From sequence record MK817115.1: 64,000 nt of DNA; one strand, written 5' to 3'. The first letter of the stretch is position 1; each line of letters starts with the position of its first letter. The notes beneath the pieces were generated by a model. It was given only the letters and a program-made list of their open reading frames with translations, was not told where the DNA came from and ran no database searches. Shown piece by piece: positions 36,226 through 50,138 of the stretch. A program made the position numbers and the translations under genes. The stretch is from Escherichia phage vB_EcoM_phAPEC6.

Positions 36226-36444
36226 ATTTTATACGATTCATATAAAAAGTCAATAACATTTTATTCGTAATACCCCTTTATCGAAGTCGCTAAGGTTACC
36301 CGCCCTTTAGCCCCCTACGCATTTTGCCATAGTCCAATCCCTTTTATTTCAAAAAAGTCAAGGGATTACCTATGCATTTTTTTAACGCATAATTTTAAAA
36401 ACGCCTTGACTTTTTTCTGAATCAGTACTAGATCCCTTTACGCA
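36226..36444 (-). promoter_or_regulatory. intergenic control region upstream of FamB array
   Basis: noncoding ~220 bp with minus-strand TTGACT-16-TAAAAT promoter-like site and repeated AAAAAGTCAA, TACGCATT and CCCTTTA words. Confidence 0.4.
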
Positions 36445-36654
36445 TTAATCCTTCGTTACGCTAACGATTATCTGTGTATCCCCGTAGTCCTGCCATACTT
36501 CCACGCCATCGGTCGCCCTGGTTAGTCGTGCTGTCATCTGCTTAATGGTCTTAGGCTTTAGTGGAACCTGTTGCAGTACTGTACGCATAGCATCATTGAC
36601 GTTATCATGTACGCCTGCAATAGTACCTAGAACGCTGTATACTGTATAGAACAT
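36445..36654 (-). CDS. hypothetical protein
   Basis: ORF-track ORF; AGGAG RBS; hairpin AGGCCGC/GCGGCCT immediately upstream. Confidence 0.5.
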   Translation of the reverse strand: MFYTVYSVLGTIAGVHDNVNDAMRTVLQQVPLKPKTIKQMTARLTRATDGVEVWQDYGDTQIIVSVTKD

Positions 36655-36722
36655 ATGTATGTACTCCTGATATAGTTAAGGCCGCTACAAGGCGGCCTAT
36701 GATGTTTGGTGATGTGTAACGC

Positions 36723-37124
36723 TTACAGTCCTAAGATAGTGCGTGCTTCGTTACGTTCCGTACACAGCTGCATGATGTGAGCAAGTAAGTCCTTGCTAAT
36801 GTATCCGTTGTCCATAGCTTCACGGATAGATACATCATAAGCACCGAACCCCGTGCGAACGATACGCACATCATTCAGGTTAGTATTATAGATACCGCCG
36901 AGATCAACGGCTTCGAATACTACATCAACAGAATATTCATTGTTGCCATCGTGGAAGTTTTCCAGTGCAATAGTATTGGATACCGCCCAACGTTTGCAGT
37001 TTCCAATGATGCGGCACTGTTCCGGTTGGATAGTGCCATTACTTACAGCGTACTCCAGTGCATCTTTACCGAAAGTCCGAGCCAGTACTAAAACGTCAGC
37101 GAAGGAATTGATTGAGAAGGTCAT
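36723..37124 (-). CDS. hypothetical protein
   Basis: start at Met12 behind AAGGAG RBS; track ORF to 37157 reads into 5' hairpin of cassette. Confidence 0.55.
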   Translation of the reverse strand: MTFSINSFADVLVLARTFGKDALEYAVSNGTIQPEQCRIIGNCKRWAVSNTIALENFHDGNNEYSVDVVFEAVDLGGIYNTNLNDVRIVRTGFGAYDVSIREAMDNGYISKDLLAHIMQLCTERNEARTILGL

Positions 37125-37213
37125 GATAAAACTCCTTAATTTAGGAGGGAGAACCATTTCCCCCTCTCTATGTAAAACATTATACTTGATTCTAAGTACT
37201 ATGCAAGTACTTT
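37125..37213 (-). promoter_or_regulatory. promoter / 5' stem-loop / RBS cassette
   Basis: TTGCAT -35, TATAAT -10, GTTTTACAT, GGGGG..CCC hairpin, AAGGAG RBS (minus-strand reading). Confidence 0.6.
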
Positions 37214-37546
37214 TTACATTTTAATACCTGGATTCAGGTAGCGGTGAGATCCATATTCTGGATCGGTTTCGGTCCAGTACTGTAAATCTATAGTACCTTT
37301 AGCGTTAATCTTGTCTACCAGCTTATTCATCTTAGCGTATACTACATCAGCATCGATGCGTTTAAAGCCAGTAGCTTTAGTGAAGTAGTAGTGATTTGCT
37401 TCACTATCATTAAGGATATACCGAGCACCGTTTGCAGTCTGTGCGATAATGATTGAGTATTCTACTTCCCGATCCAGACCGTCGATGAATACAGATGAAA
37501 CATTGGTACGGATGAAAGCTTTAACGATAGCGATTGAAGTACTCAT
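37214..37546 (-). CDS. hypothetical protein
   Basis: ORF-track ORF; TTGACA-17-AATAAT promoter and AGGAGA RBS upstream. Confidence 0.55.
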   Translation of the reverse strand: MSTSIAIVKAFIRTNVSSVFIDGLDREVEYSIIIAQTANGARYILNDSEANHYYFTKATGFKRIDADVVYAKMNKLVDKINAKGTIDLQYWTETDPEYGSHRYLNPGIKM

Positions 37547-37649
37547 TTTGAATCTCCTAACTTTGTGGGCCGTCGCACCATTGCCGCCCTACGAGATACA
37601 TTATTGCAGTACTGATATACTTTGTCAATACTTTTTTATTAATAGTTTT

Positions 37650-37790
37650 AGTTCCACCAGCAGATAGTTACTCACCGTTATTAACTATATATTTTGGATA
37701 CACTCCTGCACCCAGTGGGCTAGTTTTTGTCTATGCGTATATAATAGCAAAGGGACTGACCGGAGTCAATCCCTTTTTTATTCTTTTTTG
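37650..37790 (+). ncRNA. conserved intergenic element, candidate small RNA with bidirectional terminator (copy 1)
   Basis: GATACAC..GCACCCAGTGGGC core, TATAATAG box, GGGACTGACCGGAGTCAATCCC hairpin flanked by A-run and T-run. Confidence 0.3.
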
Positions 37791-37991
37791 TTAGATGATT
37801 CTCCAATCTTCTACGATCATGGTAAGATAACGGACCATCGATTCAAGTGATTCGAATTCCCGATAGTCTGCCGCTCCACCAGCGGTACAAGTACAGCCGA
37901 TTAAACCATTTTGCAATTCCTTAATCTGTACATCGATAAGGTTGGCTTTAGCTTCTTTCAGTACTTCAACCAGGGCGATAGCGATAGACAT
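37791..37991 (-). CDS. hypothetical protein
   Basis: ORF-track ORF; cassette upstream. Confidence 0.55.
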   Translation of the reverse strand: MSIAIALVEVLKEAKANLIDVQIKELQNGLIGCTCTAGGAADYREFESLESMVRYLTMIVEDWRII

Positions 37992-38081
37992 AATGTTTTA
38001 CTCCAAACTATTAGCGGGAGAACTATTCCCCCGCTCTATGTAAAACATTATACATTACTGGTTAGTACTGTCAAATAGTTT
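37992..38081 (-). promoter_or_regulatory. promoter / 5' stem-loop / RBS cassette
   Basis: GCGGGGGAATAGTTCTCCCGC hairpin between TATAAT and GGAG RBS. Confidence 0.6.
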
Positions 38082-38339
38082 TTATGAAATATCTTCGATG
38101 TAGTCGGCCCATTTCATTTTTTCAGTACTGTCAATGGCTACCGGATTATTTGGATCAAACCATTCACCATTACCGCAGTACATACCAACGGCTACGGTTT
38201 TATAGCCATCCTGGGCCGTACTCCACGACATTGCACGATAGATATGGCCTTTAACTGGTTGCAGTACTGGTAATGTTTTATGGTCTTCTACGTAGGCCAT
38301 AGCTTGAGGATTTACCCGATATTGTGTGAACTGTTCCAT
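38082..38339 (-). CDS. hypothetical protein
   Basis: ORF-track ORF; TTGACA-17 promoter-like site upstream. Confidence 0.5.
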   Translation of the reverse strand: MEQFTQYRVNPQAMAYVEDHKTLPVLQPVKGHIYRAMSWSTAQDGYKTVAVGMYCGNGEWFDPNNPVAIDSTEKMKWADYIEDIS

Positions 38340-38415
38340 TATGTTTCCCCTTGTAGTTAGTAAAGTTATTACATCAGTACTATCAAGCTATGTCAATAGT
38401 ACTGAAATAAAACTT

Positions 38416-38640
38416 TTAGATTAGATTATTGATGCCTGAAATGGTAGACTCACTTTCTTCTTTCTCCCATTGGCGGTAGTACTTCCACGCTTCATGATAG
38501 GTGGCGATCAGTTCATCTTTTTGATCCTGAGTACATGCCAGTACTGAATCACTGTAAGCGGTGTTATAGATAGAATCGAATGATTTCTTCTCTTCTGCCA
38601 GGTTAGCTACTTCCCGCATCAGTTCATCAAAGTTAGCCAT
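38416..38640 (-). CDS. hypothetical protein
   Basis: start at Met16 (MANFDELM) after cassette; track ORF to 38685. Confidence 0.55.
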   Translation of the reverse strand: MANFDELMREVANLAEEKKSFDSIYNTAYSDSVLACTQDQKDELIATYHEAWKYYRQWEKEESESTISGINNLI

Positions 38641-38708
38641 TTTAGTACTCCTTATTAGTGGGGGAGGATATCTCCCCCTATGCAAAACATTATACTTTGT
38701 TTTAGTTA

Positions 38709-38972
38709 TTATGCAAGTACTTTTTTCATATAAACATTAAATTCTACACCGCCGTAACCTTCTACGATGATATGTTTTGCGTTATCACGTTTGCACATAG
38801 TGAAACCGTTGTTGATGTGTTCTGCATTTTCCAGGGCGACATCACCGATAGCGGCACATACGGCACTAATAACAGTATTCCGCAAAGTACTGGTATCATT
38901 AGCGGTCATAGTAGTTTGCAGTACTACGTTGTCGTATACGTGTGCATTGATAGTGATTTCGATAGTGTTCAT
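38709..38972 (-). CDS. hypothetical protein
   Basis: ORF-track ORF; cassette with AGGAGA RBS upstream. Confidence 0.55.
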   Translation of the reverse strand: MNTIEITINAHVYDNVVLQTTMTANDTSTLRNTVISAVCAAIGDVALENAEHINNGFTMCKRDNAKHIIVEGYGGVEFNVYMKKVLA

Positions 38973-39058
38973 GGTGTATCTCCTGCACAGTCGGGAGAAC
39001 TATTCCCCCGCTCTATGTAAAACATTATACGTTAATCTAACTACAATGCAAGTACTTT
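38973..39058 (-). promoter_or_regulatory. promoter / 5' stem-loop / RBS cassette
   Basis: TTGCAT-16-TATAAT, then CGGGGGAATAGTTCTCCCG hairpin, AGGAGA RBS. Confidence 0.6.
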
Positions 39059-39250
39059 TTAAATTTTATTTCCGATATAGTCCGGTCTATTCTTTTCGGT
39101 CATACGCTTTGCTAATGTTTGCATATGGCTTATTGCGTTTAATGTGTCTTCCTCCAGGGATGAATCAACATAATCAGGATCATTCTTCACCTTGCAATGA
39201 TTATGATAGCGTAGTACTGCCAGTACTTTTTTAACTTCTTCTACTGTCAT
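39059..39250 (-). CDS. hypothetical protein
   Basis: ORF-track ORF; overlaps start of upstream gene (operon). Confidence 0.5.
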   Translation of the reverse strand: MTVEEVKKVLAVLRYHNHCKVKNDPDYVDSSLEEDTLNAISHMQTLAKRMTEKNRPDYIGNKI

Positions 39251-39519
39251 AATAAGTACCCCACTTCGTTAGCTTTCAGGTTAGTATCAATCATCAGTGG
39301 ATTTTTGTAGTTCACAAAACGATTAGTTTTCTCGATAGCGAATCCCATATAATCCAGCTTACTAACAGTACATTCATTCTTAAAAACTTCTTTCGCTGCA
39401 TTGATGGCTGATTCAATTGATAACCGACCATCTAAGTTAATGTTTCCAAATGATCCACCAGCAGAAGTAGGATTACCGTTCATATCTTTAATGATCATAG
39501 TAGCGGAGTAGCTAGACAT
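39247..39519 (-). CDS. hypothetical protein
   Basis: ORF-track ORF; cassette upstream. Confidence 0.55.
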   Translation of the reverse strand: MSSYSATMIIKDMNGNPTSAGGSFGNINLDGRLSIESAINAAKEVFKNECTVSKLDYMGFAIEKTNRFVNYKNPLMIDTNLKANEVGYLL

Positions 39520-39603
39520 AATTTTGTTTCCTTTTAGTATCGGGGAGAACTATTCTCCCCTTGATGTAAACTATTATACAGTACTAAGATACTTTGTCAA
39601 TAC
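39520..39603 (-). promoter_or_regulatory. promoter / 5' stem-loop / RBS cassette
   Basis: TTGACA-16-TATAAT variant, GGGGAGAA..TTCTCCCC hairpin. Confidence 0.6.
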
Positions 39604-39825
39604 TTAATTACGTTTAAAATGATATGTGCCTTTATCATCCTGTACGCCCCATACTGATTTACCATCAACACCAGTGAAACCGGATTGTAATTCAATATGG
39701 AAACCATTATTATCAACTACAAAAACTTTTTTATTTTCATCCCGATAACATTGATATTCTGAATCAACATTAAAGGCCGCATCATTCAGAAGATTGGAAG
39801 CGTAAATGCAAGTCATTGTAGTCAT
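39604..39825 (-). CDS. hypothetical protein
   Basis: start at Met26 (MTTMTCIY); track ORF to 39900 reads through leader hairpin. Confidence 0.5.
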   Translation of the reverse strand: MTTMTCIYASNLLNDAAFNVDSEYQCYRDENKKVFVVDNNGFHIELQSGFTGVDGKSVWGVQDDKGTYHFKRN

Positions 39826-39914
39826 GATTTTATTCCTTATTGCCAGGGAGAACCATTTCCCCCTCTCGATATAAAACATTATACTTGATTCTAAGTACAA
39901 TGCAAGTACTTTTT

Positions 39915-40056
39915 ATCAAATACTTTAAAATAGTTTTCAGTACTGAATACTTATATAATAGATACACTTATGCACCCTGTGGGTCAGTGAGTTATCTCTC
40001 AATGAATATATATTAGCAAAGGGACTGACCGGAGTCAATCCCTTTTTTAATCTTTT
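39915..40056 (+). ncRNA. conserved intergenic element, candidate small RNA with bidirectional terminator (copy 2)
   Basis: near-identical to copy 1: TATAATAGATACACTTATGCACCCTGTGGG ... GGGACTGACCGGAGTCAATCCC T-run. Confidence 0.3.
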
Positions 40057-40641
40057 TTATCGTGTTATAGTTACGGCTTTTACATCACGCTTTTTATAGT
40101 ACTGATTCCAGATATTGCGGGTTAAACCGTAATCAAGTACTTTAATAAGTCCATTACGATCCTGGCCGATATTCTGTTTTCTGATATCTCTTATCGTTAG
40201 TGTTGATAATGTATCATCGACGTGTTGTAGTGCATCAGCAAAGCGGTGCTGGCGTTCAATGGCATTACGTTTAATATTGTACTTTAATTCGTTGCACGCG
40301 TTAACGTGCTTCACACTGCCTTTACTTGCAGTACTCAACCGATCCATAACGATAAACATATTATCAGGATCGCATAAATGCATATGCACCTTTGCAAAGT
40401 ACTGTTTCAATTGAGGGCGGTCATAGTCTAAAAAATTCCATACCTTACATTCAGTTTCATTTTGTTCTACACCCGCATCACAATTGGCGACCTTAATCAC
40501 TAACCGATCATTTAAAGCGAATACGATACGGGAAGAACCCGCCCCGATGATCTCCAGGCCAGCTAACCGACAAGCTGAAAGGATCTCTTTGTTGGTTTCC
40601 ATTTCTGACAGTGTACGGATGAATTTAGTATAATTACGCAT
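40057..40641 (-). CDS. putative protein kinase (Hanks-type catalytic motifs)
   Basis: Gly-rich loop IGAGSSRIVF, VIKV lysine, catalytic loop RDIRKQN, DFG-like LDYG; start at Met20 behind AAGGAGA RBS. Confidence 0.6.
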   Translation of the reverse strand: MRNYTKFIRTLSEMETNKEILSACRLAGLEIIGAGSSRIVFALNDRLVIKVANCDAGVEQNETECKVWNFLDYDRPQLKQYFAKVHMHLCDPDNMFIVMDRLSTASKGSVKHVNACNELKYNIKRNAIERQHRFADALQHVDDTLSTLTIRDIRKQNIGQDRNGLIKVLDYGLTRNIWNQYYKKRDVKAVTITR

Positions 40642-40672
40642 TGCATGTTCTCCTTGAGTTAATGAAACTATC

Positions 40673-40915
40673 TTACAGTACTTTACTATCAATGGCAACC
40701 ACTTTTTTCACACTAACCGCGTGAATCACTTCCTTAGTGTTTTTAGTACTGAATACTTTCGCTGTTCCTTGTTCTACTGCAATGCGATAACGACCGTTAA
40801 CATCAACCATATTAATAAAGTCCGGTGTACTAAACCGAGTAGTACGGCATTTCAGTACTGTTAACAATTCCACCAGCGATGTAGTTTCTTTGATACGTTT
40901 TTCTAAAGTAATCAT
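40673..40915 (-). CDS. hypothetical protein
   Basis: ORF-track ORF; TTGACA promoter-like site upstream. Confidence 0.5.
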   Translation of the reverse strand: MITLEKRIKETTSLVELLTVLKCRTTRFSTPDFINMVDVNGRYRIAVEQGTAKVFSTKNTKEVIHAVSVKKVVAIDSKVL

Positions 40916-40973
40916 TTTGTTTTCCCCCGTGTTGGTATGTACATATAGTACTAAAACATTTGAGTACTGTCAA

Positions 40974-41192
40974 TTAGATAATAGAATATTTCTTTAGTGA
41001 TAATGCGTCTTCTGTCGGTTGATATTCTACACCGTTCCCGTTATCAACCTTAGTGAGTAAACCTTTATCAATGAGTTTTTTGATGGTACGGTTTCCCTGT
41101 TGAAAACTGGTGAAGTGTGAATCATTACGAAAGGTATAACCGTGCTTCACTGCTTCATCAATAGTTTTCTTTTCGATTTTAGATAATTTCAT
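40974..41192 (-). CDS. hypothetical protein, possible winged-helix DNA-binding
   Basis: start at Met21 (MKLSKIEKK); TTGACA-17-TATTAT promoter; weak HTH-like pattern only. Confidence 0.45.
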   Translation of the reverse strand: MKLSKIEKKTIDEAVKHGYTFRNDSHFTSFQQGNRTIKKLIDKGLLTKVDNGNGVEYQPTEDALSLKKYSII

Positions 41193-41248
41193 TTTGTTTC
41201 TCTCTCTGTGTTGGTATAGATACATAATACTAAAACAATTGAGTACTG

Positions 41249-41503
41249 TCAACGTGATATTAGTTTTATTTTTTTATTGTATTGTTGGTGTTCATATAGA
41301 TTAATTTTTCCAGTACTCTCAATTACTATTCTATTGTTAGTGTCTACATCGATAACACGTAGTTTCCCGTTGCTTAACTTCCTGGGTAATAGACTACCAT
41401 TAATAAACTCATTAGCAAGCTGTACGGCCTTTGTGATGATTCTCTGTGGTGCTTTATAGTGTACCCGCAAGATATTATCTTTAGATAGTTGTACCTTCAT
41501 CAT
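41249..41503 (-). CDS. hypothetical protein
   Basis: ORF-track ORF downstream of terminator. Confidence 0.45.
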   Translation of the reverse strand: MMKVQLSKDNILRVHYKAPQRIITKAVQLANEFINGSLLPRKLSNGKLRVIDVDTNNRIVIESTGKINLYEHQQYNKKIKLISR

Positions 41504-41512
41504 TTTAGTTTA

Positions 41513-41545
41513 TCCTATAAAAAAAGGCGGGAACTGAACCCGCCG
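41513..41545 (-). terminator. rho-independent terminator
   Basis: GGCGGG..CCCGCC hairpin followed by T7 on minus strand. Confidence 0.6.
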
Positions 41546-41567
41546 TGTTGTTAGTACTGCAAAGTTA

Positions 41568-41963
41568 TTAGATAACCTGGCGGCGTTTACTGTATACTGT
41601 TACACGGTTTCCTTTACGGTCATGACGGATCTCTTTCTGGTTACGAATCAGTTCACTTGGACGCTTAAGGTTTGCCAGGTGATCCGCGTGAGTCCATGCA
41701 TTTGCGTTAACTGTAACTTCAATATCAGAACCTTTCAAAAAGTCATCTTGAGCGTTCAGTACTTCAGCCAGTTCTTGAGCTTGCTTTAGTTCTGCTTCAG
41801 TAAGTACAGGCTCAGGTGAATTCACAATATCAGAGATCTCTTTGAACTGTACCGCCCAGCGTTGTCCTTTCGGTGCATCTTTGCCCATGTCTTTAAATGT
41901 TTCACCTTCTTCACGAGCAACGATGCGAGCTTGTTCACGGGTAGCGAAGAATTTAGTAATCAT
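41568..41963 (-). CDS. hypothetical protein (FATREQAR paralog 1)
   Basis: paralog of 53585..53851 (KYFATREQARIAAR, DRKGNRVTVY); consensus TTGACA-17-TATAAT promoter; start by analogy at Met4. Confidence 0.55.
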   Translation of the reverse strand: MITKFFATREQARIVAREEGETFKDMGKDAPKGQRWAVQFKEISDIVNSPEPVLTEAELKQAQELAEVLNAQDDFLKGSDIEVTVNANAWTHADHLANLKRPSELIRNQKEIRHDRKGNRVTVYSKRRQVI

Positions 41964-42062
41964 GGTGTACATCCTATTAGTTAAGTTAATTAGTACTACA
42001 AGTTAGAGTCTATTATAAAGTACTATCTGGGCAATGTCAAATAGTACTTTAAATGGATTCTA

Positions 42063-42386
42063 TTACATGTCTTTTTTACGTTTTACATCGTAGTAACGAA
42101 CTGTAATTTCTTTGTTGATCTCATCCTCAATTCTGTGTAGTACTTTCTCTTTCGGGTTGAAACCTATTACAGTTTCTTTAATGATCTCCAAGCCCGTGTA
42201 TTCGCCTTGTGTACCGTAACCGTAAGTAAAGGTTTCATGTCCCAGGTCTTCCCAGCGGTCACCAATCAATGCAGACACGTAGCATGAGTGGTAAGTATTG
42301 CCGTGGCTATCAGTCCACCGATTAACTTTAATGTCAAAGGAAGTTACAATTTTCATTTCTACTTTCTGGGCAAGGATCATAGTCAT
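42063..42386 (-). CDS. hypothetical protein (YGYG/DVKRKKD paralog 1)
   Basis: paralog of 48255..48599; cassette upstream. Confidence 0.55.
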   Translation of the reverse strand: MTMILAQKVEMKIVTSFDIKVNRWTDSHGNTYHSCYVSALIGDRWEDLGHETFTYGYGTQGEYTGLEIIKETVIGFNPKEKVLHRIEDEINKEITVRYYDVKRKKDM

Positions 42387-42473
42387 TTTAATTTCTCTCT
42401 TTTTGTTAGGAAGGGAACCATTCCCCTCACTTGATGTAAACTATTATACAGTACTAAGATACTTTGTCAATAC
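42387..42473 (-). promoter_or_regulatory. promoter / 5' stem-loop / RBS cassette
   Basis: TTGACA-16-TATAAT and GGGAACCATTCCC hairpin. Confidence 0.6.
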
Positions 42474-42749
42474 TTAAGTATTGTAAATGTCGTGAATAGT
42501 GATAAAGTTTTTACGACCGTAAACATGTAAATCAGTATCAATGTAGTGCTTATCAAGTACATCCTCGACGCTTAAAGCCGTGTCGTGAATATCTTCATAG
42601 AATTGTGGATCTACAATCTTACTTAAATCATCCGGCGTTAACTTATCATTGAGCCATTGCACCGCCTGGATATCTGCATCACGTTTCCAGTCTTCCAGGT
42701 TAGTAGTCAGTACTTGCTCGATTTCGTTAGCTGTCAGTAGAATCCGCAT
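42474..42749 (-). CDS. hypothetical protein
   Basis: ORF-track ORF; cassette upstream. Confidence 0.55.
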   Translation of the reverse strand: MRILLTANEIEQVLTTNLEDWKRDADIQAVQWLNDKLTPDDLSKIVDPQFYEDIHDTALSVEDVLDKHYIDTDLHVYGRKNFITIHDIYNT

Positions 42750-42838
42750 TTTAATTTCTCTCTTTGTTAGGTGGGGAACTATTCCCCACTTGATGTAAAA
42801 TATTATACAGTACTAAAAACTATTGTCAAACTATTTTA

Positions 42839-43039
42839 TCAAATTGTTTCCCATTTCATGTTACCCGCTTTACGCTGTGAAACAGGAATAAACATGTTAT
42901 TAATGTTACTAATATAACCGACCTGTAAGTCACGCTGTGAACCATACGCCCGACTTGCTGCATTTTTAGCACCGCGTTCTGATTTATAAACGCCGCTGGA
43001 TACTGTAAAGCCTACTACACCGAAAGTAAAATGTTTCAT
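42839..43039 (-). CDS. hypothetical protein
   Basis: ORF-track ORF behind tandem promoters. Confidence 0.5.
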   Translation of the reverse strand: MKHFTFGVVGFTVSSGVYKSERGAKNAASRAYGSQRDLQVGYISNINNMFIPVSQRKAGNMKWETI

Positions 43040-43250
43040 TTTGTATTCCTCTTTGTGGTTGATGTAAGTATTATACTCGTTTAATTTCTATTGTCAAACT
43101 ATTTTATCAGGGGAGGTTTTCGTATGTCTTACTCCTGGACTACTTAACGGGGTTACTTATTTCGTTCCCCGTCCTGATGTAAAACATTATACTTGATTCT
43201 AAGTACAATGCAAGTACTTTTTAAAAATAGTTTTCAGTACTTGATAGTAC
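43040..43250 (-). promoter_or_regulatory. tandem promoters separated by ~80-nt structured leader element
   Basis: two -35/-10 pairs; between them ACGGGG..CCCCGT and CAGGAG..CTCCCCTG stems; element recurs near 49950 and 52910. Confidence 0.5.
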
Positions 43251-43356
43251 TAGCCACCAGCATATAATAGATACATTTATGCACCCTGTGGGTTAGATTG
43301 TTTCTATGCATATATAATAGCAAAGGGACTGACCGGAGTCAATCCCTTTTTTAAAT
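43245..43356 (+). ncRNA. conserved intergenic element, candidate small RNA with bidirectional terminator (copy 3)
   Basis: same core and terminator hairpin as copies 1 and 2. Confidence 0.3.
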
Positions 43357-43360
43357 CTTT

Positions 43361-43510
43361 TTAAACTTGTTTTGGGTTGCGATATGTGATAGCGTTCGGG
43401 TACATTTGTTTAATGTTATTCCATGCCTGGTTAACATTGTAACCACTTGATCGAATCAGTTGGTTACTTCCTACGCCCTGAAACACTACTTCGAATAAGA
43501 ATTCTTTCAT
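43361..43510 (-). CDS. small hypothetical protein (49 aa)
   Basis: hand-translated ORF, ATGA overlap with upstream gene; below track cutoff. Confidence 0.35.
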   Translation of the reverse strand: MKEFLFEVVFQGVGSNQLIRSSGYNVNQAWNNIKQMYPNAITYRNPKQV

Positions 43511-43677
43511 GCTGCAATCCCCTCTGATTTACCTTTACGCCAGGCGTTAGCCAGTTCATTACGTTGCCATACATCCAATGCAATGTATAGTTTAGCAGTA
43601 TCCCCTTTAGGGTATTCGCCAGTAGTGCCTAACCGATAAAACAGATCTTTCAGTACTGATAATTCTACTTGGATCAT
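43507..43677 (-). CDS. small hypothetical protein (56 aa)
   Basis: hand-translated ORF in operon. Confidence 0.35.
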   Translation of the reverse strand: MIQVELSVLKDLFYRLGTTGEYPKGDTAKLYIALDVWQRNELANAWRKGKSEGIAA

Positions 43678-43766
43678 TGTATTACTCCTGATTGTGTTAG
43701 TACTTCTACGATGGCATGAATGATCATAAGTACAGCTAACACAACAATCATCGGATTCATTTGCAT
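43674..43766 (-). CDS. small hydrophobic peptide (30 aa)
   Basis: MQMNPMIVVLAVLMIIHAIVEVL; AAGGAG RBS; overlapping stop/start with next ORF. Confidence 0.35.
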   Translation of the reverse strand: MQMNPMIVVLAVLMIIHAIVEVLTQSGVIQ

Positions 43767-43783
43767 AAGCTGTACTCCTTCTA

Positions 43784-43996
43784 TTAATCTTTCAGCCAAT
43801 GATCTTGAATGAATTTTTCACAGAATCCCTGTTTCATAGATTCTAACAGGCGTTCACGGTGAGCGGCGGCATATTGCTCAGTACTATGCGTTACGCCAGG
43901 TTGATAACGTGAAACACCGTCCGGTCCGATATATTGAACATCCCACGGTTTTTCGTTAGTATCAGACCATTTACGAACGATTAGTTGACCTTGCAT
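43784..43996 (-). CDS. hypothetical protein
   Basis: ORF-track ORF; cassette upstream. Confidence 0.55.
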   Translation of the reverse strand: MQGQLIVRKWSDTNEKPWDVQYIGPDGVSRYQPGVTHSTEQYAAAHRERLLESMKQGFCEKFIQDHWLKD

Positions 43997-44081
43997 GTTT
44001 CTTTCCTCTTAGTGGGGAGAATCATTTCTCCCCTTCATGTAAACTATTATACAGTACTATAATCTATTGTCCAGTACTTTT

Positions 44082-44270
44082 TTACAGTTTATGAATCAAT
44101 TCTTTATCTAAGCGATAGCGTACATTATTAATGGTAACAGCATTATTTTTAATGCTACGCTGTACTGGCCCACCAGCAATAACAAACGTTGCTTTATTAC
44201 CCCGAACAATGATAGCACTACCAGGATTGCCAAAATCATCTTGTACTAAAATACTTGATAAGTTTTCCAT
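44082..44270 (-). CDS. hypothetical protein
   Basis: start at Met3 behind AAGAGG RBS (track ORF to 44276). Confidence 0.5.
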   Translation of the reverse strand: MENLSSILVQDDFGNPGSAIIVRGNKATFVIAGGPVQRSIKNNAVTINNVRYRLDKELIHKL

Positions 44271-44348
44271 TTTCATTTCCTCTTAGTAGGGGAAGACGTT
44301 TCCCCTTGATGTAAGTACTATAACAGTACTGGAAACTAAATGCAAGTA

Positions 44349-44705
44349 CTACGATAAAATCATGATAGGATATTCACTATCGATCAGTACTTCAAATCCA
44401 AAACTTTCATACCATTCTTTAAGATTAAAGGCGTTATCTTCTCCCGTATCGCATTCTAAAATGATACAATCTGAATCATCGGCGGCATCAATAAAGGCGT
44501 TCATCAATTCCGTACCTTCACCATTACCCCGACTAGCAGGATCAACATAAAGAGAATCAATAAACGCTACACGGTCATAATCAAGATCCGGTGCAATGAT
44601 TCCACGTTTAACAAACCAGTACTGCAATTGTGCTACTTTGCCCTGTACTTGATAGCCAGTGATCTCGCCATTGTCAGTAGTACGCGTGGTATGTTGTATT
44701 CCCAT
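44349..44705 (-). CDS. GNAT-family N-acetyltransferase
   Basis: motif A-like RGNGEGTELMNAF; consensus TTGACA-16-TATAAT promoter and GAGGA RBS. Confidence 0.55.
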   Translation of the reverse strand: MGIQHTTRTTDNGEITGYQVQGKVAQLQYWFVKRGIIAPDLDYDRVAFIDSLYVDPASRGNGEGTELMNAFIDAADDSDCIILECDTGEDNAFNLKEWYESFGFEVLIDSEYPIMILS

Positions 44706-44768
44706 GATTTCTATCCTCAGTTAAGATATAAAATATTATACACTATCTTTCAGTACTGTCAATACTTT

Positions 44769-45026
44769 TTATCTCATAGATCTATGCCAACAATTACGCG
44801 GATCTCTTTTAAAAGTACTATCATGATCCTCCTGGCAAGTTATGCAATACTTACATCCCTTAACAGCCTGGCGGCGATTCTCAGGGATTTTATCGCCACA
44901 GTCGAGGCAATGTATCAGTGATTCTATTTGTGCGTTAATTTGCTTTCTAGCGTGGTTTACGGCGGCCTGAATCACTGCGTTAATCTCGTCTTGCTCGGCC
45001 CCGTCTTTCGCGAATCCTACAGCCAT
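44769..45026 (-). CDS. TraR/DksA-family C4 zinc-finger protein
   Basis: CLDC-x17-CITC with IPENRR between cysteines. Confidence 0.6.
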   Translation of the reverse strand: MAVGFAKDGAEQDEINAVIQAAVNHARKQINAQIESLIHCLDCGDKIPENRRQAVKGCKYCITCQEDHDSTFKRDPRNCWHRSMR

Positions 45027-45223
45027 TATTTTAACTTTTTTCTGTCATTGATTAATGCTTTCAGTACTATACTAATGATTTGCAATGATTCATCAATAAC
45101 TATAAAATTATTTTCTTTCATTAGATGATAGTTACCATTGATATTATATTCTAACGAGTACTGTTTACGTTTAATTTTTGATAATGTTTCTATTTGTTTT
45201 TGTACTGATTTCATGCTAATCAT
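45026..45223 (-). CDS. hypothetical protein
   Basis: ORF-track ORF; stop overlaps start of the zinc-finger gene. Confidence 0.45.
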   Translation of the reverse strand: MISMKSVQKQIETLSKIKRKQYSLEYNINGNYHLMKENNFIVIDESLQIISIVLKALINDRKKLK

Positions 45224-45328
45224 TGTTAAACGTCCTGTAACGCATTCTAACGAGATAAACGGTTTAGTACTGGCATTGTATAGGGTAATGGATTAAAGCC
45301 CACCAGCGTTAACCAGTGGGCTATAATC

Positions 45329-45472
45329 TTACATCTTGCGGATAATCTTAACAGTATCTTTCACCGATTTACCGTTTTGCTGACATTGTTCGATCATCGC
45401 GTATTGTTCTGCGGTCAGATCCTCGCCAGTTTTTGCCAGTACTGCATCGATGAATGAATCTAGTGCGATCAT
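45329..45472 (-). CDS. small hypothetical protein (47 aa)
   Basis: hand-translated ORF between cassette and terminator hairpin AGCCCAC..GTGGGCT. Confidence 0.4.
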   Translation of the reverse strand: MIALDSFIDAVLAKTGEDLTAEQYAMIEQCQQNGKSVKDTVKIIRKM

Positions 45473-45570
45473 TTTGTTTCTCTCTTAGGTTAAGTTAACT
45501 ACTGTTTATAAAACTTATTATACAGTACTATCAAACTATGTCAATATCTTTAATAGTACTGGTAATATAT

Positions 45571-45741
45571 TTTAGCGGTAGTCGTCGTATGCTTTATTCA
45601 CCTGGCGAATGTAACTTTCAAAGGCTTCGTCTACCGTTTCATACTCCCGAACATAATCACCATAGGAAACTACATACATCCCTTTTTGATCTTCAAACGT
45701 CATGATGATAGAATCCAGGCCGATGATTTCAGTTTTTGCGA
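45571..45741 (-). CDS. small hypothetical protein (56 aa)
   Basis: hand-translated ORF preceded by cassette. Confidence 0.4.
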
Positions 45742-45832
45742 TGATAGCCATTTTTAATTCCTTAGTAGTGTAGTTGATAAAACTTATTATACAGTACTAT
45801 CAAACTATGTCAATAGTACTGTGATAATATTT

Positions 45833-46045
45833 TTAGTTAATGATAGTCAGTGTAAAATTGTAATCCCCTGCCTGGTATAGTACTTTGTCGCCGAACGTAC
45901 CAACACGTTTCATATTGCAATAGATACCCATAACACTTTTTACATCTTTGATATTCCGAACGCCTGTGATATCCTTGTTGAAATTTTCATGATCAGAAAA
46001 TAAAACTTGTTTTGCATTTTTCAGTACAGTGCAGATATTAGCCAT
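45833..46045 (-). CDS. hypothetical protein
   Basis: ORF-track ORF; cassette upstream. Confidence 0.55.
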   Translation of the reverse strand: MANICTVLKNAKQVLFSDHENFNKDITGVRNIKDVKSVMGIYCNMKRVGTFGDKVLYQAGDYNFTLTIIN

Positions 46046-46138
46046 TTTGATTTCTCTTTGTTAGTGGGGAGAACTATTCTCCCCTTGATGTAACTTATTA
46101 TACAGTACTATAATCTATTGTCAAACTATTTTTTAATA
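46046..46138 (-). promoter_or_regulatory. promoter / 5' stem-loop / RBS cassette
   Basis: TTGACA variant, GGGGAGAACTATTCTCCCC hairpin, AAAGAGAAA RBS. Confidence 0.6.
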
Positions 46139-46480
46139 TTATTCAAAATCTTCTGGACCGGACTGATAATCATCTTCACCGTATGCACTTTCTAACTTCT
46201 CGCCAGTGTGATCATCAGTTAGTGAGTCATCCTCATAGTTCACGTCTACGCCCGTGATGTAAAACTGGCTATCGTCTGGATCATTGAAATTAATTTTCTG
46301 AATGTTTACAATAACGGTATTGATGCCCAGGACACCGCCATCAGCAGTTACAAAGTACTGATAGTTTTCACAACCGCCTGTATTGAAACCGTAATTAATT
46401 TCGGCCCGACCATCATTTAAACGCAGTGCCTGGGCGATGATTTCGTTTTCAAAGTTAGATTGAGCAATTGAGATAGTCAT
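46139..46480 (-). CDS. hypothetical acidic protein
   Basis: start at Met22 (MTISIAQ); track ORF begins at TTG inside leader. Confidence 0.55.
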   Translation of the reverse strand: MTISIAQSNFENEIIAQALRLNDGRAEINYGFNTGGCENYQYFVTADGGVLGINTVIVNIQKINFNDPDDSQFYITGVDVNYEDDSLTDDHTGEKLESAYGEDDYQSGPEDFE

Positions 46481-46564
46481 GATTCGTTTCCTTATTACCA
46501 GGGGAAACCGTTTCCCCTCTCGATGTAAAACATTATACGCCAATTGAGATAGTTTGCAAGTACT

Positions 46565-46690
46565 TTTTAAAAATAGTTTTCAGTACTCAATACTTATATA
46601 ATAGATACACTTATGCACCCGGTGGGCTAGTGAGCTATCTCTCAATGAATATATAATAGCAAAATGGCTGACCGAAGTCAACCACTTTTT
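46565..46690 (+). ncRNA. conserved intergenic element, candidate small RNA with bidirectional terminator (copy 4)
   Basis: same architecture, hairpin variant GGCTGACCGAAGTCAACC. Confidence 0.3.
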
Positions 46691-46694
46691 TCAT

Positions 46695-46829
46695 TTATTT
46701 TTTAGCTTTCAGTACTGCCGCCTTTCGCGTCATGCCTTGCTTAATGTACTCCTTTACTTTCGCTTTACGTGCTTTCGCTTTATCTGCTTTCGTTTTAGGA
46801 GTACTGTAAATTAAACCGTTAGGATTCAT
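46695..46829 (-). CDS. small lysine-rich hypothetical protein (44 aa)
   Basis: hand-translated ORF. Confidence 0.35.
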   Translation of the reverse strand: MNPNGLIYSTPKTKADKAKARKAKVKEYIKQGMTRKAAVLKAKK

Positions 46830-46919
46830 TTAAATCACCATAAAGAATAGATAGGTTACTAACAATGCCGCGATCAATGCACCGATCACCGCTGAACTGT
46901 AATAAGCTAATGATTTCAT
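46830..46919 (-). CDS. small hydrophobic peptide (29 aa)
   Basis: MKSLAYYSSAVIGALIAALLVTYLFFMVI. Confidence 0.3.
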   Translation of the reverse strand: MKSLAYYSSAVIGALIAALLVTYLFFMVI

Positions 46920-47068
46920 TTTTTAGCCTGGAAGTAATGTTTAATTTGTGCGGCGGTCAGTGCACAATTACGCAGGAAGTTTTCTGTATAACTGCGGCGA
47001 GTACTGAAAGAGAATTGACCTTTGCCGTTACCGATAGTAACATCAAACCGAGCGTTGTATTGTTTCAT
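46916..47068 (-). CDS. hypothetical protein
   Basis: start at Met11 (MKQYNARF) after cassette; track ORF to 47098. Confidence 0.5.
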   Translation of the reverse strand: MKQYNARFDVTIGNGKGQFSFSTRRSYTENFLRNCALTAAQIKHYFQAKK

Positions 47069-47149
47069 TTTGTTTCTCCTGTTATTGGGGAGAATCATTT
47101 CTCCCCTTCATGTAAAACATTATACAGTACTAAAAACTAATTGCAAGTA
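47069..47149 (-). promoter_or_regulatory. promoter / 5' stem-loop / RBS cassette
   Basis: TTGCAA -35, TATAAT, GGGGAGAATCATTTCTCCCC hairpin. Confidence 0.6.
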
Positions 47150-47296
47150 CTATTTTTTAGATTTACGCAAACTTTCTACCATCTCAGGAGTAAGGCCAGG
47201 CGGGTAGGAAACCACTTCATCAACGAAACGTAAAGGGAATACCCCAGCGAAAGGTGAACATGCTTTCTTAGTATTACTCTTTTTTGATGCTTTCAT
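47150..47296 (-). CDS. small hypothetical protein (48 aa)
   Basis: hand-translated ORF with cassette upstream. Confidence 0.35.
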   Translation of the reverse strand: MKASKKSNTKKACSPFAGVFPLRFVDEVVSYPPGLTPEMVESLRKSKK

Positions 47297-47365
47297 TTCA
47301 TATTCCTTAATTAGTGGAGAGAATCATTTCTCCCCTTCATGTAAAACATTATACGCGTTTAAAAA

Positions 47366-47575
47366 CTAATTGCAAGTATTATTTGAAAGTAAATGCTCAT
47401 ACGCTGCATTAACTACGTTTTCAATAACCGACTGTACAGAAAGATCCCCCACGTCCTGGCTATAGTAGAAATCGCTTACAGTACTATCATCGTATGCAAA
47501 TACTTTACCAGGATCTGCATCAATCACATACATATTAACCTTTAAGATGTCGATCTTATCCTGTACAGTAAGCAT
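47366..47575 (-). CDS. hypothetical protein
   Basis: ORF-track ORF; AAGG RBS. Confidence 0.5.
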   Translation of the reverse strand: MLTVQDKIDILKVNMYVIDADPGKVFAYDDSTVSDFYYSQDVGDLSVQSVIENVVNAAYEHLLSNNTCN

Positions 47576-47580
47576 ATTAA

Positions 47581-47853
47581 TTAACCTTTTAAGTACTGGC
47601 TTAAGTAGTCTTGTTGATCTTCGGTGATTGCAGCCATCTTCCCTAGTACTGGATTGATGATATAATCCCCTGTAACGTCCTGTAACGCATTCTCAGGCGG
47701 TTTAACGGCTGGGGTAGCCATAGCCATTGCCTGGACTTGTTCGACGCTGTAACGCTCATAAAGGCGGCATTCTTCCGGTGTTAACATAGCATCAGTACGC
47801 TTCATCGGTTTAATGATGCTTTCGATCTCATTCAGTACTTGATTAACGTTCAT
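47581..47853 (-). CDS. hypothetical protein
   Basis: ORF-track ORF. Confidence 0.5.
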   Translation of the reverse strand: MNVNQVLNEIESIIKPMKRTDAMLTPEECRLYERYSVEQVQAMAMATPAVKPPENALQDVTGDYIINPVLGKMAAITEDQQDYLSQYLKG

Positions 47854-47904
47854 GGTATAATCCCCAATATAAGCGGCCTAAATCGACCGCTAACGATGTT
47901 TTGA

Positions 47905-48174
47905 TTAATAGGTGTATGGTTGACGCTCAAACAATGAATAGACGTTATACGCCCCGCTTATGGGCTTCGCTGGTAAATCAATTTTATATTGTTCACGCTT
48001 AAAGATAATAAAACGGCAATTGTTTTTAACATCAAAATTGATTGAACGTTCCAGGAGTTTACCATCGTGCACAAATACAAGATAACCGCTCGCTACTTGT
48101 TTTGTAGTACTGGTTGCAACCATAGACCGCCGAACATGTGTACCTGCATCAATTAAAGTACTGATATTTTTCAT
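47905..48174 (-). CDS. hypothetical protein
   Basis: ORF-track ORF. Confidence 0.5.
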   Translation of the reverse strand: MKNISTLIDAGTHVRRSMVATSTTKQVASGYLVFVHDGKLLERSINFDVKNNCRFIIFKREQYKIDLPAKPISGAYNVYSLFERQPYTY

Positions 48175-48254
48175 TATACTATCTTCTTAAGTTAATTTAA
48201 TTTCTTTCCCCTATGCAGACACTATATCAAAGTATCTGCATAAAGTAAAGCTAA

Positions 48255-48599
48255 TTAAAGATCTTTTTTGCGTTTAACATCAGTTACCGAACTGTAAACA
48301 GTGATATTATTGTCACGGCAAAAACGGGAAAGATAAGAACCGCGTAAAAACTCTTTATCTTCCATATTAATAACCTTGCTAAATTCTTCCATTGCTACAG
48401 TGTCAAAGTGATCCCCGTATCCATATTGGAACGGCACGTTTACTACTTCAATAAAATTACCATCAATTTCTACGTCTACACTTAAAGAGAAATAAGTGTT
48501 ACCATATGAAGCCTGGAACCAACGCCGAGCGGCAATATGTACAACTTCAACAGAAGACAGGTTGATATTTTGTTTTGCGATAGTGTTGATATTAGCCAT
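48255..48599 (-). CDS. hypothetical protein (YGYG/DVKRKKD paralog 2)
   Basis: paralog of 42063..42386 (GNTY, YGYG, C-terminal DVKRKKD). Confidence 0.55.
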   Translation of the reverse strand: MANINTIAKQNINLSSVEVVHIAARRWFQASYGNTYFSLSVDVEIDGNFIEVVNVPFQYGYGDHFDTVAMEEFSKVINMEDKEFLRGSYLSRFCRDNNITVYSSVTDVKRKKDL

Positions 48600-48680
48600 T
48601 TTAATTTCCTCTTAGTTGTCTTGATAAAATCTATTATGCCAGTACTATCAAACTATGTCAATAGTACTGTGATAATATTT

Positions 48681-48824
48681 TTACTTACTTTTTGCTTTCT
48701 TTGCTGCTTCCACCTGGTCGGCCCATTCTTTACCCCATACTTGTAAATTATAATGGTACTGGCAAAGTGCAACGCCCCGCTTTAAACCAGTAATAGATTT
48801 TTTACCACATTGACAAGTTTTCAT
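48681..48824 (-). CDS. small Cys-rich protein (47 aa), possible zinc ribbon
   Basis: CQCG...CQYH spacing; cassette upstream; hand-translated. Confidence 0.35.
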   Translation of the reverse strand: MKTCQCGKKSITGLKRGVALCQYHYNLQVWGKEWADQVEAAKKAKSK

Positions 48825-48910
48825 ATTAGTTTCCTCATTATCAGGGAGAACCATTTCTCCCCTTGATGTAATGTATTATACTTTATCTGATTTACTTTGC
48901 AAGTACTTTT

Positions 48911-50103: not shown

Positions 50104-50132
50104 AAAAACAAAAAAAGCCCACCAGGTGGGCT
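50104..50132 (-). terminator. rho-independent terminator
   Basis: AGCCCACC..GGTGGGCT hairpin followed by T-run on minus strand. Confidence 0.6.
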
Positions 50133-50138
50133 ATGTAC

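What the first reader, a model, noticed from the sequence alone, without database searches (positions are those of the whole stretch)
37650..46690. Four copies of a ~120 nt intergenic element: candidate plus-strand small RNA ending in a bidirectional terminator
At about 37650-37790, 39915-40056, 43245-43356 and 46565-46690 the plus strand carries TATAATAGATACAC, a GCACCCnGTGGG(C/T) core, a second TATAATAGCAAA box, then the hairpin GGGACTGACCGGAGTCAATCCC flanked by an A-run and a T-run. The hairpin can terminate the upstream minus-strand gene and also close a short plus-strand transcript. The reverse complement of the core (CCCACCGGGTGC) recurs after the plus-strand promoters at 51121, 53066 and 55211, so the same word is used in both orientations, as for a palindromic operator or a structured RNA core.
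Basis: partly seen in the sequence, partly recalled or inferred. Interest (0 to 1): 0.65.

Follow-up and report, generated by a model that had tools for sequence, protein, structure and literature searches.

The report
Promoter-proximal RNA motif in jumbo-phage repeats
The four repeats are real, but they belong to a family of about ten copies in this phage's 20-kb terminal repeat: each is a host-type promoter followed by a small conserved folded RNA that reads from the promoter's strand (the gene strand for these four, not the plus strand); the motif occurs in all six RaK2-like giant-phage lineages I scanned, matches no Rfam family, and has no known function.

Summary
The core word occurs 9 times in the window against 0.18 expected. 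The interpretation needs turning round. The window comes from an Asteriusvirus (121Q/PBECO4-like) jumbo coliphage, and positions 36.3-56.4 kb correspond to its direct terminal repeat.

All ten copies share one layout. A sigma70-type promoter comes first. 21-30 nt after its -10 lies the invariant word RCCC-AYN-GGGUGC. Between them sits a short hairpin (P1) that covaries strongly. After the core comes a 3' arm, (G)YRUCY, that can pair with GGGUG.

The "hairpin" is the upstream gene's terminator and carries the -35 TTGACT. The "second TATAAT box" is the -10 (TGcTATTAT) read backwards.

A covariance model finds 77 copies in six phage lineages. In a complete 352-kb genome it finds copies only in one 16-kb stretch. 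No Rfam family matches, and I found no description in the papers searched.

My best reading is a new family of abundant early small RNAs, or 5'-terminal RNA modules, made by host RNA polymerase, with the conserved core acting as a binding handle. Function is inferred, not shown. The main rival is a put/nut-like element acting in cis on RNA polymerase.

The parts
36290..56368 (.). Equivalent of the phage's direct terminal repeat (DTR). All element copies lie inside it.
   Evidence: Base 1 of fEgEco12 (termini confirmed by restriction digests; DTR 20,993 bp; PMC13070987) aligns to window 56368. The DTR end maps to about 36290.
37693..37776 (-). Copy A. Terminator hairpin 37749-37776 carrying -35 TTGACT (37769-37764); -10 TATTAT (37746-37741); RNA element 37735-37693 with core CCCACTGGGTGC (37719-37708).
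   Evidence: Model hit of 31.1 bits.
39957..40045 (-). Copy B. Terminator hairpin 40018-40045 with -35 at 40038-40033; -10 TAATAT (40015-40010); predicted start near 40003; P1 UGAG/CUCA; core 39983-39972; 3' arm GUAUCU.
   Evidence: Model hit of 59.3 bits.
43266..43349 (-). Copy C. Terminator hairpin 43322-43349 with -35 at 43342-43337; -10 at 43319-43314; core 43292-43281. It also holds the only good opposite-strand promoter, 43241-43268 (+).
   Evidence: Model hit of 42.6 bits.
46600..46688 (-). Copy D. Terminator hairpin 46661-46688 (GGUUGAC-UUCG-GUCAGCC on the minus strand) with -35 at 46681-46676; -10 at 46658-46653; P1 UGAG/CUCA; core 46626-46615.
   Evidence: Model hit of 55.6 bits.
51121..51250 (+). 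Copy E, a lone copy antisense to the genes. Promoter TTGACA-17-CATAAT at 51121-51149; element 51158-51204; two-way terminator 51229-51250. Predicted RNA of about 100 nt.
   Evidence: (41.4 bits).
53066..53142 (+). Copy F, a weak or degenerate family member that converges on F'. Promoter TTGACA-17-TATAAT (12 of 12); core 53116-53127.
   Evidence: 22.1 bits, E 0.009.
53158..53238 (-). Copy F'. Promoter TTGACT-17-CATAAT at 53238-53210; P1 UGGC/GCCG; core CCCATAGGGTGC at 53184-53173.
   Evidence: 42.6 bits.
54996..55078 (+). Copy H, converging on H'. Promoter TTGACT-16-TATAAT; P1 CGC/GCG; core CCCCAGAGGGTGC; 3' arm CGCCC.
   Evidence: 30.5 bits.
55096..55177 (-). Copy H', a variant. Promoter TTGCTA-18-TACTAT (55177-55148); core CCTGCTAGGGTGC; P2 followed by a U-run.
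   Evidence: (terminator-like site 55115..55096). The model did not detect it at E<=1.
55211..55293 (+). Copy G. Promoter TTGCTT-16-TATAAT; P1 AGUC/GACU; core 55267-55278; 3' arm CGCCC.
   Evidence: 50.2 bits.
55622..55650 (+). Degenerate copy: CCACCCAGGGTAACTACGCCCAAAAT.
   Evidence: Read directly. Not scored.

Best explanation
Each 'copy' is a compact module read on one strand.

1. A sigma70-type promoter. In the sense-oriented lone copies its -35, TTGACx, is built into the terminator hairpin of the upstream gene.
2. A start at the A of a conserved CA, about 7 nt after the -10.
3. A 3-5 bp hairpin, P1, starting 2-5 nt from the 5' end. Its sequence differs between subfamilies and its loop is purine-rich.
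4. A 3-5 nt linker.
5. The invariant RCCC-AYN-GGGUGC.
6. A 3' arm, (G)YRUCY.

The core can form either a mini-hairpin (RCCC/GGGU) or a helix P2 (GGGUG(C)/(G)YRUCY). The two exclude each other.

Shown here: the repeat family, its fixed link to promoters, P1 covariation, wobble-only variation in the core helices, restriction to the terminal repeat, and conservation across the six lineages scanned.

Inferred: host RNA polymerase transcribes these modules immediately after infection, from the first DNA expected to enter the cell. The RNA itself is the product, either a free small RNA of about 50-100 nt or the 5' end of a longer early transcript. P1 protects the 5' end. The invariant core serves as a binding handle for a conserved host or phage partner, so the RNA would act as a decoy, sponge or ribonucleoprotein component.
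For: - Promoter link: every true copy has a promoter scoring 8-12 of 12, with its -10 ending 21-30 nt before the core. Chance matches inside genes score 5-6, except one (CBB 34717+) that scores 8. The annotators of fHe-Yen9-03 independently marked -35 and -10 at the same place.
- Model search: R1 finds 77 copies in 8 sources.
- P1 pairing: 95% of cells are paired. 117 cells are changed on both sides, against 39 in shuffles (0 of 500). Partners slid by 1-3 columns give 32-56% pairing for the whole structure. At least 25 distinct stems occur.
- P2: 91% paired. Its 3' arm varies only by G-U to G-C and U-A to U-G changes.
- Mini-hairpin: 97% paired, with the outer position always A or G opposite U. 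RNAalifold predicts P1 plus the mini-hairpin by itself.
- Strand: on the opposite strand P2 pairing would fall to 48% (my recount).
- Orientation: 55 copies are sense and 27 antisense to the flanking genes, counting model hits and pattern matches together. This argues against a purely cis leader role.
- Defined 3' ends: of the lone antisense copies checked in the window, L036, L038, L039 and L040, four (window E, L036 11169- and 18006-, CBB 10245-) are followed about 40 nt later by a two-way terminator.
- Distribution: in the complete 352-kb TH47 genome all hits fall in one 16-kb stretch. In the window, all lie inside the DTR equivalent.
- P1 subfamilies recur across genera, for example UGGC-AGAUAA-GCCG and AGCA-AGAACAA-UGCU.
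Against: - I have no transcript data.
- The sense lone copies mostly lack a terminator. They are followed about 40-50 nt later by the next gene's own promoter. A discrete small RNA from them would therefore need processing.
- Single-sequence folding is no better than shuffled sequence (z about 0 for copies B and D).
- Sense and antisense folding energies do not differ significantly (p = 0.12).
- GGGUG is invariant, so neither core helix has true double compensatory support. Only one or two such cases exist.
- The P1 counts come from an alignment fitted to the model.
- No partner was identified. A Pfam scan of 48 DTR ORFs found no RNA-binding or antiterminator domain.
Confidence: 0.5

Rival explanations
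1. A nascent-RNA element acting in cis on the RNA polymerase that makes it. It would work either alone, like HK022 put, or as a loading site for a small phage protein, like lambda nut with N. Transcripts started at these promoters would then resist pausing and read through the many terminators of the terminal repeat.
For: - The element begins within 2-5 nt of the predicted 5' end, directly after a strong early promoter. It has two stem-loops, as putL does: putL starts at A3, has two stem-loops, and carries a -10-like sequence at +23-28 (PMC9378689).
- Half the copies carry a -10-like hexamer just after P2 (39 of 79 match NANNNT).
- The sense copies sit at the start of 2-3 kb gene blocks bounded by terminators.
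- 67% of copies are sense-oriented.
Against: - One third of copies point away from genes or into a converging partner, and at least four lone antisense copies run straight into two-way terminators.
- The element is about 48 nt with 4-6 bp helices, against about 73 nt with long stems and a triplex in put.
- No boxA or ops word lies near any copy.
- No N, Q or NusG-like protein was found among the DTR ORFs.
- The -10-like hexamer is absent from half the copies.
Confidence: 0.2
2. The conserved part has no function of its own. The modules would be mobile or recombining terminator-promoter cassettes, like the PeSL cassettes of T4-type phages. In this reading the 5' hairpins only stabilise early mRNAs, and homogenisation between copies keeps the sequence alike.
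For: - A stem-loop plus early promoter between small, variable ORFs matches the PeSL layout as I recall it (Arbiol et al. 2010, from memory, not read here).
- A hairpin at the 5' end is a known stabiliser.
- Gene content between modules varies among related phages.
Against: - Ordinary early promoters in the same region use a different leader hairpin, so stabilisation does not need this core.
- The 12-nt core is invariant across six lineages that share only 74-83% identity around it, while the neighbouring loops drift freely.
- P1 subfamilies are kept across genera.
- Antisense and converging copies have no mRNA to stabilise.
Confidence: 0.12
3. The core is read as DNA. It could be an operator, a signal in the non-template strand seen by a factor in a paused complex (ops/RfaH-like), or the upstream box of a second promoter (CCCACA-N17-TATAAT) used by a phage-modified polymerase.
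For: - The core is 12 nt, invariant and orientation-specific, as ops is.
- The consensus of the six bases at positions 13-18 after GGGTG is TATAAT.
- CCCACA lies 17 bp upstream of that hexamer.
Against: - P1 covariation needs single-stranded folding.
- The 3' arm varies only in ways that preserve RNA wobble pairs.
- The 'palindrome' has G opposite T in half the copies.
- Only 28 of 79 copies match TANNNT at the hexamer.
- The word is absent from the other 336 kb of a complete genome, so it is not a general middle-promoter box.
Confidence: 0.08
4. One reading: a plus-strand small RNA of about 80-120 nt. It would start at TATAATAGATAC, contain GCACCCnGUGGG, and end at the two-way terminator.
For: - Copy C has a strong plus-strand promoter (TTGATA-16-TATAAT, 11 of 12, at 43241-43268).
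- Copies B and D have a perfect -10.
- The hairpin is followed by a long T-run on the plus strand.
- The plus-strand RNA of copy B folds better than shuffles (z = -2.35), mainly because of the terminator.
- Antisense transcription across the element also occurs by design in the converging pairs.
Against: - Copy A has no such box.
- Copies B and D have no -35.
- The TATTAT hexamer underlying the box occurs in only 7 of 79 family members.
- The hairpins have C-A mismatches on the plus strand but U-G pairs, and a UUCG loop in copy D, on the minus strand.
- P2 is lost on that strand (48% paired).
- The other six window copies show that the conserved promoter always lies on the CCCAC...GGGTGC strand.
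Confidence: 0.05

Closest known systems
HK022 putL/putR antiterminator RNAs
   Same: A nascent RNA placed directly after an early sigma70 promoter. It starts within a few nt of the 5' end, has two stem-loops, and has a -10-like sequence nearby (PMC9378689).
   Different: This element is about 48 nt with short helices, against about 73 nt with long stems and a triplex. It has 10-15 copies per genome rather than 2. One third of copies are antisense or converging. I made no sequence comparison, and no activity is known.
PeSL (promoter-early stem-loop) cassettes of T4-type phages (from my own knowledge: Arbiol, Comeau and Krisch 2010)
   Same: A terminator-like stem-loop joined to an early sigma70 promoter, repeated between small variable ORFs in a plastic early region.
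   Different: Here the -35 lies inside the stem, and the cassette carries an extra, invariant transcribed RNA motif (P1 plus core) that PeSLs are not described as having.
Lambda nut sites (boxA plus boxB hairpin) and rrn antiterminator leaders
   Same: A variable small hairpin with a purine-rich loop next to a conserved single-strand word in a promoter-proximal leader.
   Different: No boxA word is present. The order is hairpin first. No N-like protein was found. Many copies have no operon downstream.
ops element / RfaH
   Same: A 12-nt invariant, orientation-specific word in the leader that can form a mini-hairpin with a 3-4 nt loop.
   Different: The sequence is unrelated to GGCGGTAG. The variation pattern fits RNA wobble pairing, not DNA.
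ncRNA001 and ncRNA002 in the terminal repeat of Pseudomonas jumbo phage PA5oct
   Same: Highly transcribed non-coding RNAs encoded in the long terminal repeat of a related jumbo phage (PMC7318152).
   Different: The model finds nothing significant in the first 26 kb of PA5oct's 39-kb repeat, which holds both ncRNAs (best E 0.23). Those RNAs are 236-451 nt, and no motif is shared.

Membership tests
Any Rfam 15 family | A score at or above the family's gathering threshold. | tested here: not met
   The whole window gives 0 hits at gathering thresholds. E-value searches of 37-56.5 kb and of two single copies give only sub-threshold chance or terminator hits, none on the core.
tRNA / tmRNA | Cloverleaf detected by ARAGORN. 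| tested here: not met
   0 genes in the window.
Sigma70-type promoter | TTGACA and TATAAT-like hexamers 16-18 bp apart, upstream of the element on the same strand. | tested here: met
   8-12 of 12 matches in all 10 window copies and in every true family member. Activity was not tested.
   The minus-strand scan lists 37776..37749, 43349..43322 and 46688..46661, each with 12 pairs. These lie 15 nt after the stop for copy A and 12 nt after it for copy B. The U-run (UUUGCUAUUAU) is interrupted because it doubles as the -10 region.
HK022 put RNA | Sits at the 5' end of a transcript directly after an early promoter. | tested here: met
   The predicted start is 2-5 nt before P1.
HK022 put RNA | About 70 nt, two long stem-loops, with a triplex in stem I. 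| tested here: not met
   About 48 nt. P1 is 3-5 bp and the core helices are 4-6 bp.
HK022 put RNA | Terminator read-through through the beta' zinc-binding domain, with no protein factor. | not testable with these tools
   Needs in vitro transcription or genetics.
Lambda-type nut site | A boxA word (CGCUCUUA or GCUCUUUAA) next to the hairpin. | tested here: not met
   Neither boxA word occurs in the terminal-repeat region. The 6-nt core GCTCTT occurs once there, at 52566, away from every copy.
ops / RfaH site | GGCGGTAG in the non-template strand of the leader. | tested here: not met
   The one occurrence in the region is at 38472, not at an element.
PeSL-type regulatory cassette | A stem-loop joined to an early promoter, repeated between small ORFs of a variable early region. 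| tested here: met
   Sequence relatedness to T4-type PeSLs was not tested.
Palindromic DNA operator | Two-fold symmetric half-sites kept as Watson-Crick complements. | tested here: not met
   The outer position is G opposite T in 38 copies and A opposite T in 35 of 79. The inner loop is 3-4 nt and variable.

The most novel reading that the evidence does not exclude
The motif is a two-state RNA, in which the mini-hairpin RCCC/GGGU competes with helix GGGUG/YRUCY. It would be made in large amounts from more than 10 consensus promoters on the first DNA to enter the cell. It would either reprogram host RNA polymerase directly, as a short protein-free put-like device used genome-wide, or soak up a conserved enterobacterial regulator or defence protein. 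Either way it would be a previously unrecognised class of early RNA effector in RaK2-like jumbo phages.
Probability: 0.25. Interest if true: 0.8.

Novelty: new variant of a known kind. Interest (0 to 1): 0.6.

Why it matters
RaK2-like jumbo phages are candidates for therapy against E. coli, Klebsiella, Salmonella and Erwinia, yet their 20-kb terminal repeats are annotated almost entirely as 'hypothetical protein'.

A 12-nt word that stays invariant across six lineages, always sits 21-30 nt after a near-consensus host promoter, and is repeated 10-15 times on both strands points to a dedicated RNA-level function in the first minutes of infection.

The prediction is testable: exact start sites, strand, helices and mutations are all specified. 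The finding also corrects annotation. These intergenic stretches contain promoters nested inside terminators, and likely RNA genes.

Tried and rejected
- Rfam at gathering and E-value thresholds: no family. ARAGORN: none.
- Exact-pattern scan of IMG/VR: only the 121Q contig matched in the expected context. The other 30 loci were single, presumably chance, matches.
- BLAST of a consensus element against 5,426 E. coli genomes: no match. This test is insensitive for a 50-mer.
- PA5oct terminal repeat, first 26 of 39 kb: nothing significant.
- Pseudoknot between the P1 loop AGAUAA and the 3' arm UAUCU. By my reading of the alignment, complementarity is present in 8 of 13 copies with that loop, which is about the background frequency of UAUCU. 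Other loop types have no complement. Rejected.
- A sigma-dependent pause or second promoter at the TATAAT-like hexamer after P2. Only 39 of 79 copies have A2 and T6, so it is not a family feature.
- Strand choice from folding energy: not significant (p = 0.12). Single-copy z-scores are about 0.
- Base triple between CCC and the P2 helix: rejected on strand polarity (my reasoning, not computed).
- Pfam scan of 48 DTR ORFs for an RNA-binding or antiterminator partner: only DksA/TraR zinc finger, ParE-like, GNAT and DUFs.
- Literature. The CBB, PA5oct and fEgEco12 papers do not mention the motif. A full-text search for the core word returned only unrelated titles among the 15 of 33 hits listed.

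Full report
**Origin of the window**

Megablast of 37-47 kb hits Asteriusvirus jumbo coliphages (JP4, 121Q, PBECO4, G17, TH47) at 90-95% identity. The closest match to 53.05-53.25 kb is vB_Eco_slurp01 at 99%.

Base 1 of phage fEgEco12 aligns to window 56368. That phage's ends and its 20,993-bp direct terminal repeat (DTR) were confirmed by restriction digests (PMC13070987). Its DTR end maps to about window 36290. The finding therefore lies in the DTR equivalent.

This region is an array of small minus-strand genes. Most have their own sigma70-type promoter and a leader hairpin. Related records annotate it almost entirely as hypothetical proteins.

**Check of the observation**

The four stretches read as described, with small deviations:
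- Copy A has no first TATAAT box.
- Copy B's second box is ATATTAGCAAA.
- Copy D's hairpin has diverged.

The core word GCACCCNGTGGG occurs 9 times with up to 1 mismatch, against 0.18 expected. The hairpin word occurs 3 times against 0.

**Re-orientation**

I laid all GGGTGC-containing copies out in the direction CCCAC to GGGTGC. All ten window copies then share one layout: -35, a 16-18 bp spacer, -10, then the core 21-30 nt later.

- The hairpin GGGAUUGACUCCGGUCAGUCCC contains TTGACT.
- 17 bp later comes TGcTATTAT, the reverse complement of the 'TATAATAGCAAA box'. The promoter scan lists these sites at 37769..37741, 43342..43314 and 46681..46653.
- On the minus strand the hairpins contain U-G pairs, and copy D has a UUCG loop. 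On the plus strand the same positions are C-A mismatches (read).

**Family and distribution**

BLAST of one copy finds 2-12 places per genome in RaK2-like phages of Escherichia, Salmonella, Klebsiella, Cronobacter, Pectobacterium, Erwinia, Yersinia and Serratia. Several hits fall under features annotated as terminal repeats. In Yersinia phage fHe-Yen9-03 the annotators marked -35 and -10 signals in the same position and on the same strand.

A pattern scan of loci from six lineages gave about 80 copies. All had a promoter scoring 8-12 of 12. Chance matches inside genes scored 5-6, except one (CBB 34717+) that scored 8.

A covariance model built from 17 copies finds 77 copies in 8 sources. In the complete 352-kb TH47 genome all hits lie within 16 kb. 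In CBB and GAP32 the copies lie at 1.0-20.9 kb and 3.8-23.6 kb. CBB's annotated repeat is 1-22,456.

The first 26 kb of the Pseudomonas phage PA5oct repeat, which holds two RNA-seq-defined ncRNAs (PMC7318152), gives no significant match.

**Structure**

*P1.* On the model-fitted alignment 95% of cells pair. 117 cells are changed on both sides, against 39 in shuffles (0 of 500). Partners slid by 1-3 columns give 32-56% pairing for the whole structure. An alignment-free test finds at least 3 Watson-Crick pairs at the fixed position in 86% of copies, against 54% of shuffles, with at least 25 different stems. Loops are purine-rich (AGAACAA, GCGAAA, GAGAAA, AGAUAA, GGACACAA). Whole P1 types recur across genera, so the paralogues are old.

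*Core.* Two helices are possible, and they exclude each other.
- RCCC/GGGU, with a 3-4 nt loop, is 97% paired. Its outer base is always A or G opposite U. One CCU/AGG double change occurs, in CBB 16131+.
- GGGUG(C)/(G)YRUCY is 91% paired. Its 3' arm varies only by G-U to G-C and U-A to U-G changes.

GGGUG never varies, so shuffle tests say nothing about either helix. RNAalifold chooses P1 plus the mini-hairpin. RNAfold favours the mini-hairpin in 45 copies and P2 in 19 of 79.

Read on the opposite strand, the G-U pairs become C-A. P2 pairing would fall to 48% and the mini-hairpin to 84% (my recount). This, together with the promoters, sets the strand. Folding energy alone does not (p = 0.12; z about 0).

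**Context of the copies**

Counting model hits and pattern matches together, 55 copies are sense and 27 antisense to the flanking genes.

- **Sense lone copies** follow a terminator that carries their -35. About 40-50 nt after them comes the next gene's own promoter.
- **Antisense lone copies**: four of those checked (window E, L036 11169- and 18006-, CBB 10245-) are followed about 40 nt after the core by a two-way terminator, which predicts RNAs of about 100 nt.
- **Converging pairs**: two or three per genome, clustered mostly near the left terminus. Their cores lie 68-91 nt apart, and 68-70 nt apart in the Asteriusvirus and Mimasvirus pairs found by the pattern scan. In the window these are F/F' and H/H'.

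**Interpretation**

The orientation mix, the defined ends of the four antisense lone copies and the invariant core argue that the RNA itself is the product. I take it to be an abundant early small RNA or 5'-terminal module with a protective 5' hairpin and a conserved binding handle. The partner and the effect are unknown (confidence 0.5).

A put- or nut-like action in cis on RNA polymerase fits the 5' position, the two hairpins and the sense copies (PMC9378689). It does not fit the antisense copies, the small size, or the absence of boxA, ops and N/Q-like proteins. I give it 0.2.

DNA-level readings are weakened by the RNA-type variation and by the word's absence elsewhere in the genome.

**Novelty**

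No Rfam family matches. Neither the genome papers for CBB, PA5oct and fEgEco12 nor a full-text search for the core word mentions it. I rate it a new family within a known kind: phage early non-coding or leader RNAs attached to terminator-promoter cassettes.

Noticed in passing
window 37000-56000, minus strand (for example 46501-46575 and 42771-42845): Nearly every ordinary early promoter (TTGCAA or TTGACA, 16 bp, TATAAT) is followed by a conserved leader hairpin, GGGGAGAAnnnTTCTCCCC, just before the ribosome-binding site. There are 13-19 copies (families D1-D10). This is a second repeated leader structure, distinct from the element studied here.
   Followed up: no
whole window: The palindrome AGTACT is about 20-fold over-represented: 139 occurrences in the DTR part against 6.5 expected, and 94 against 12 in 1-36.3 kb. 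It often appears as CAGTACTG inside promoter spacers and after the elements. The cause is unknown. It could be a promoter feature, a protein site, or linked to restriction or modification.
   Followed up: partly
window 55462-55560: An 8-bp tandem repeat, TAGCCGTC, about 12 copies and iteron-like. It lies 0.8 kb from the position that matches the physical left end of fEgEco12 (window 56368), in a largely non-coding stretch that also holds the converging element pairs.
   Followed up: partly
L036 (Klebsiella phage OU509535) 7248-24738; window 53248-53257: The word ATCTTTACAA lies just upstream of many element promoters in the Klebsiella phage and appears there in GAP32, CBB and Hallingskeid too. 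L036 has 8 exact copies against 0.35 expected, all on the same genome strand whatever the element's orientation. The window has only one exact copy.
   Followed up: partly
L001 (JP4, PQ330092.1) locus 1-11400 versus 20100-31500: The JP4 record holds the gene series of the terminal repeat twice, about 20.1 kb apart and inside the sequence. This looks like the DTR assembled as an internal duplication.
   Followed up: no
window 17241-19297 and 30480-35883: Two arrays of diverged direct repeats, with periods of about 450 bp and about 210-450 bp. They look like tandem paralogous small genes (families D8 and D11-D15).
   Followed up: no
window 35804-54689, minus-strand ORFs: Among 48 DTR ORFs, Pfam finds a DksA/TraR C4 zinc finger (1e-11), a ParE-like toxin domain (3e-10), a GNAT acetyltransferase, two DUF7249 proteins, and a weak protein-kinase hit. 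I did not map which ORF carries which domain.
   Followed up: partly
window 56355-56390 and L036 about 6180-6247 (minus): The word CTTAGTGGCATATCAGTACTGAAT, next to the presumed genome terminus in the window, also occurs beside a promoter-less CCCACAGGGTGC copy in the Klebsiella phages. It may be a conserved sequence near the terminus.
   Followed up: no
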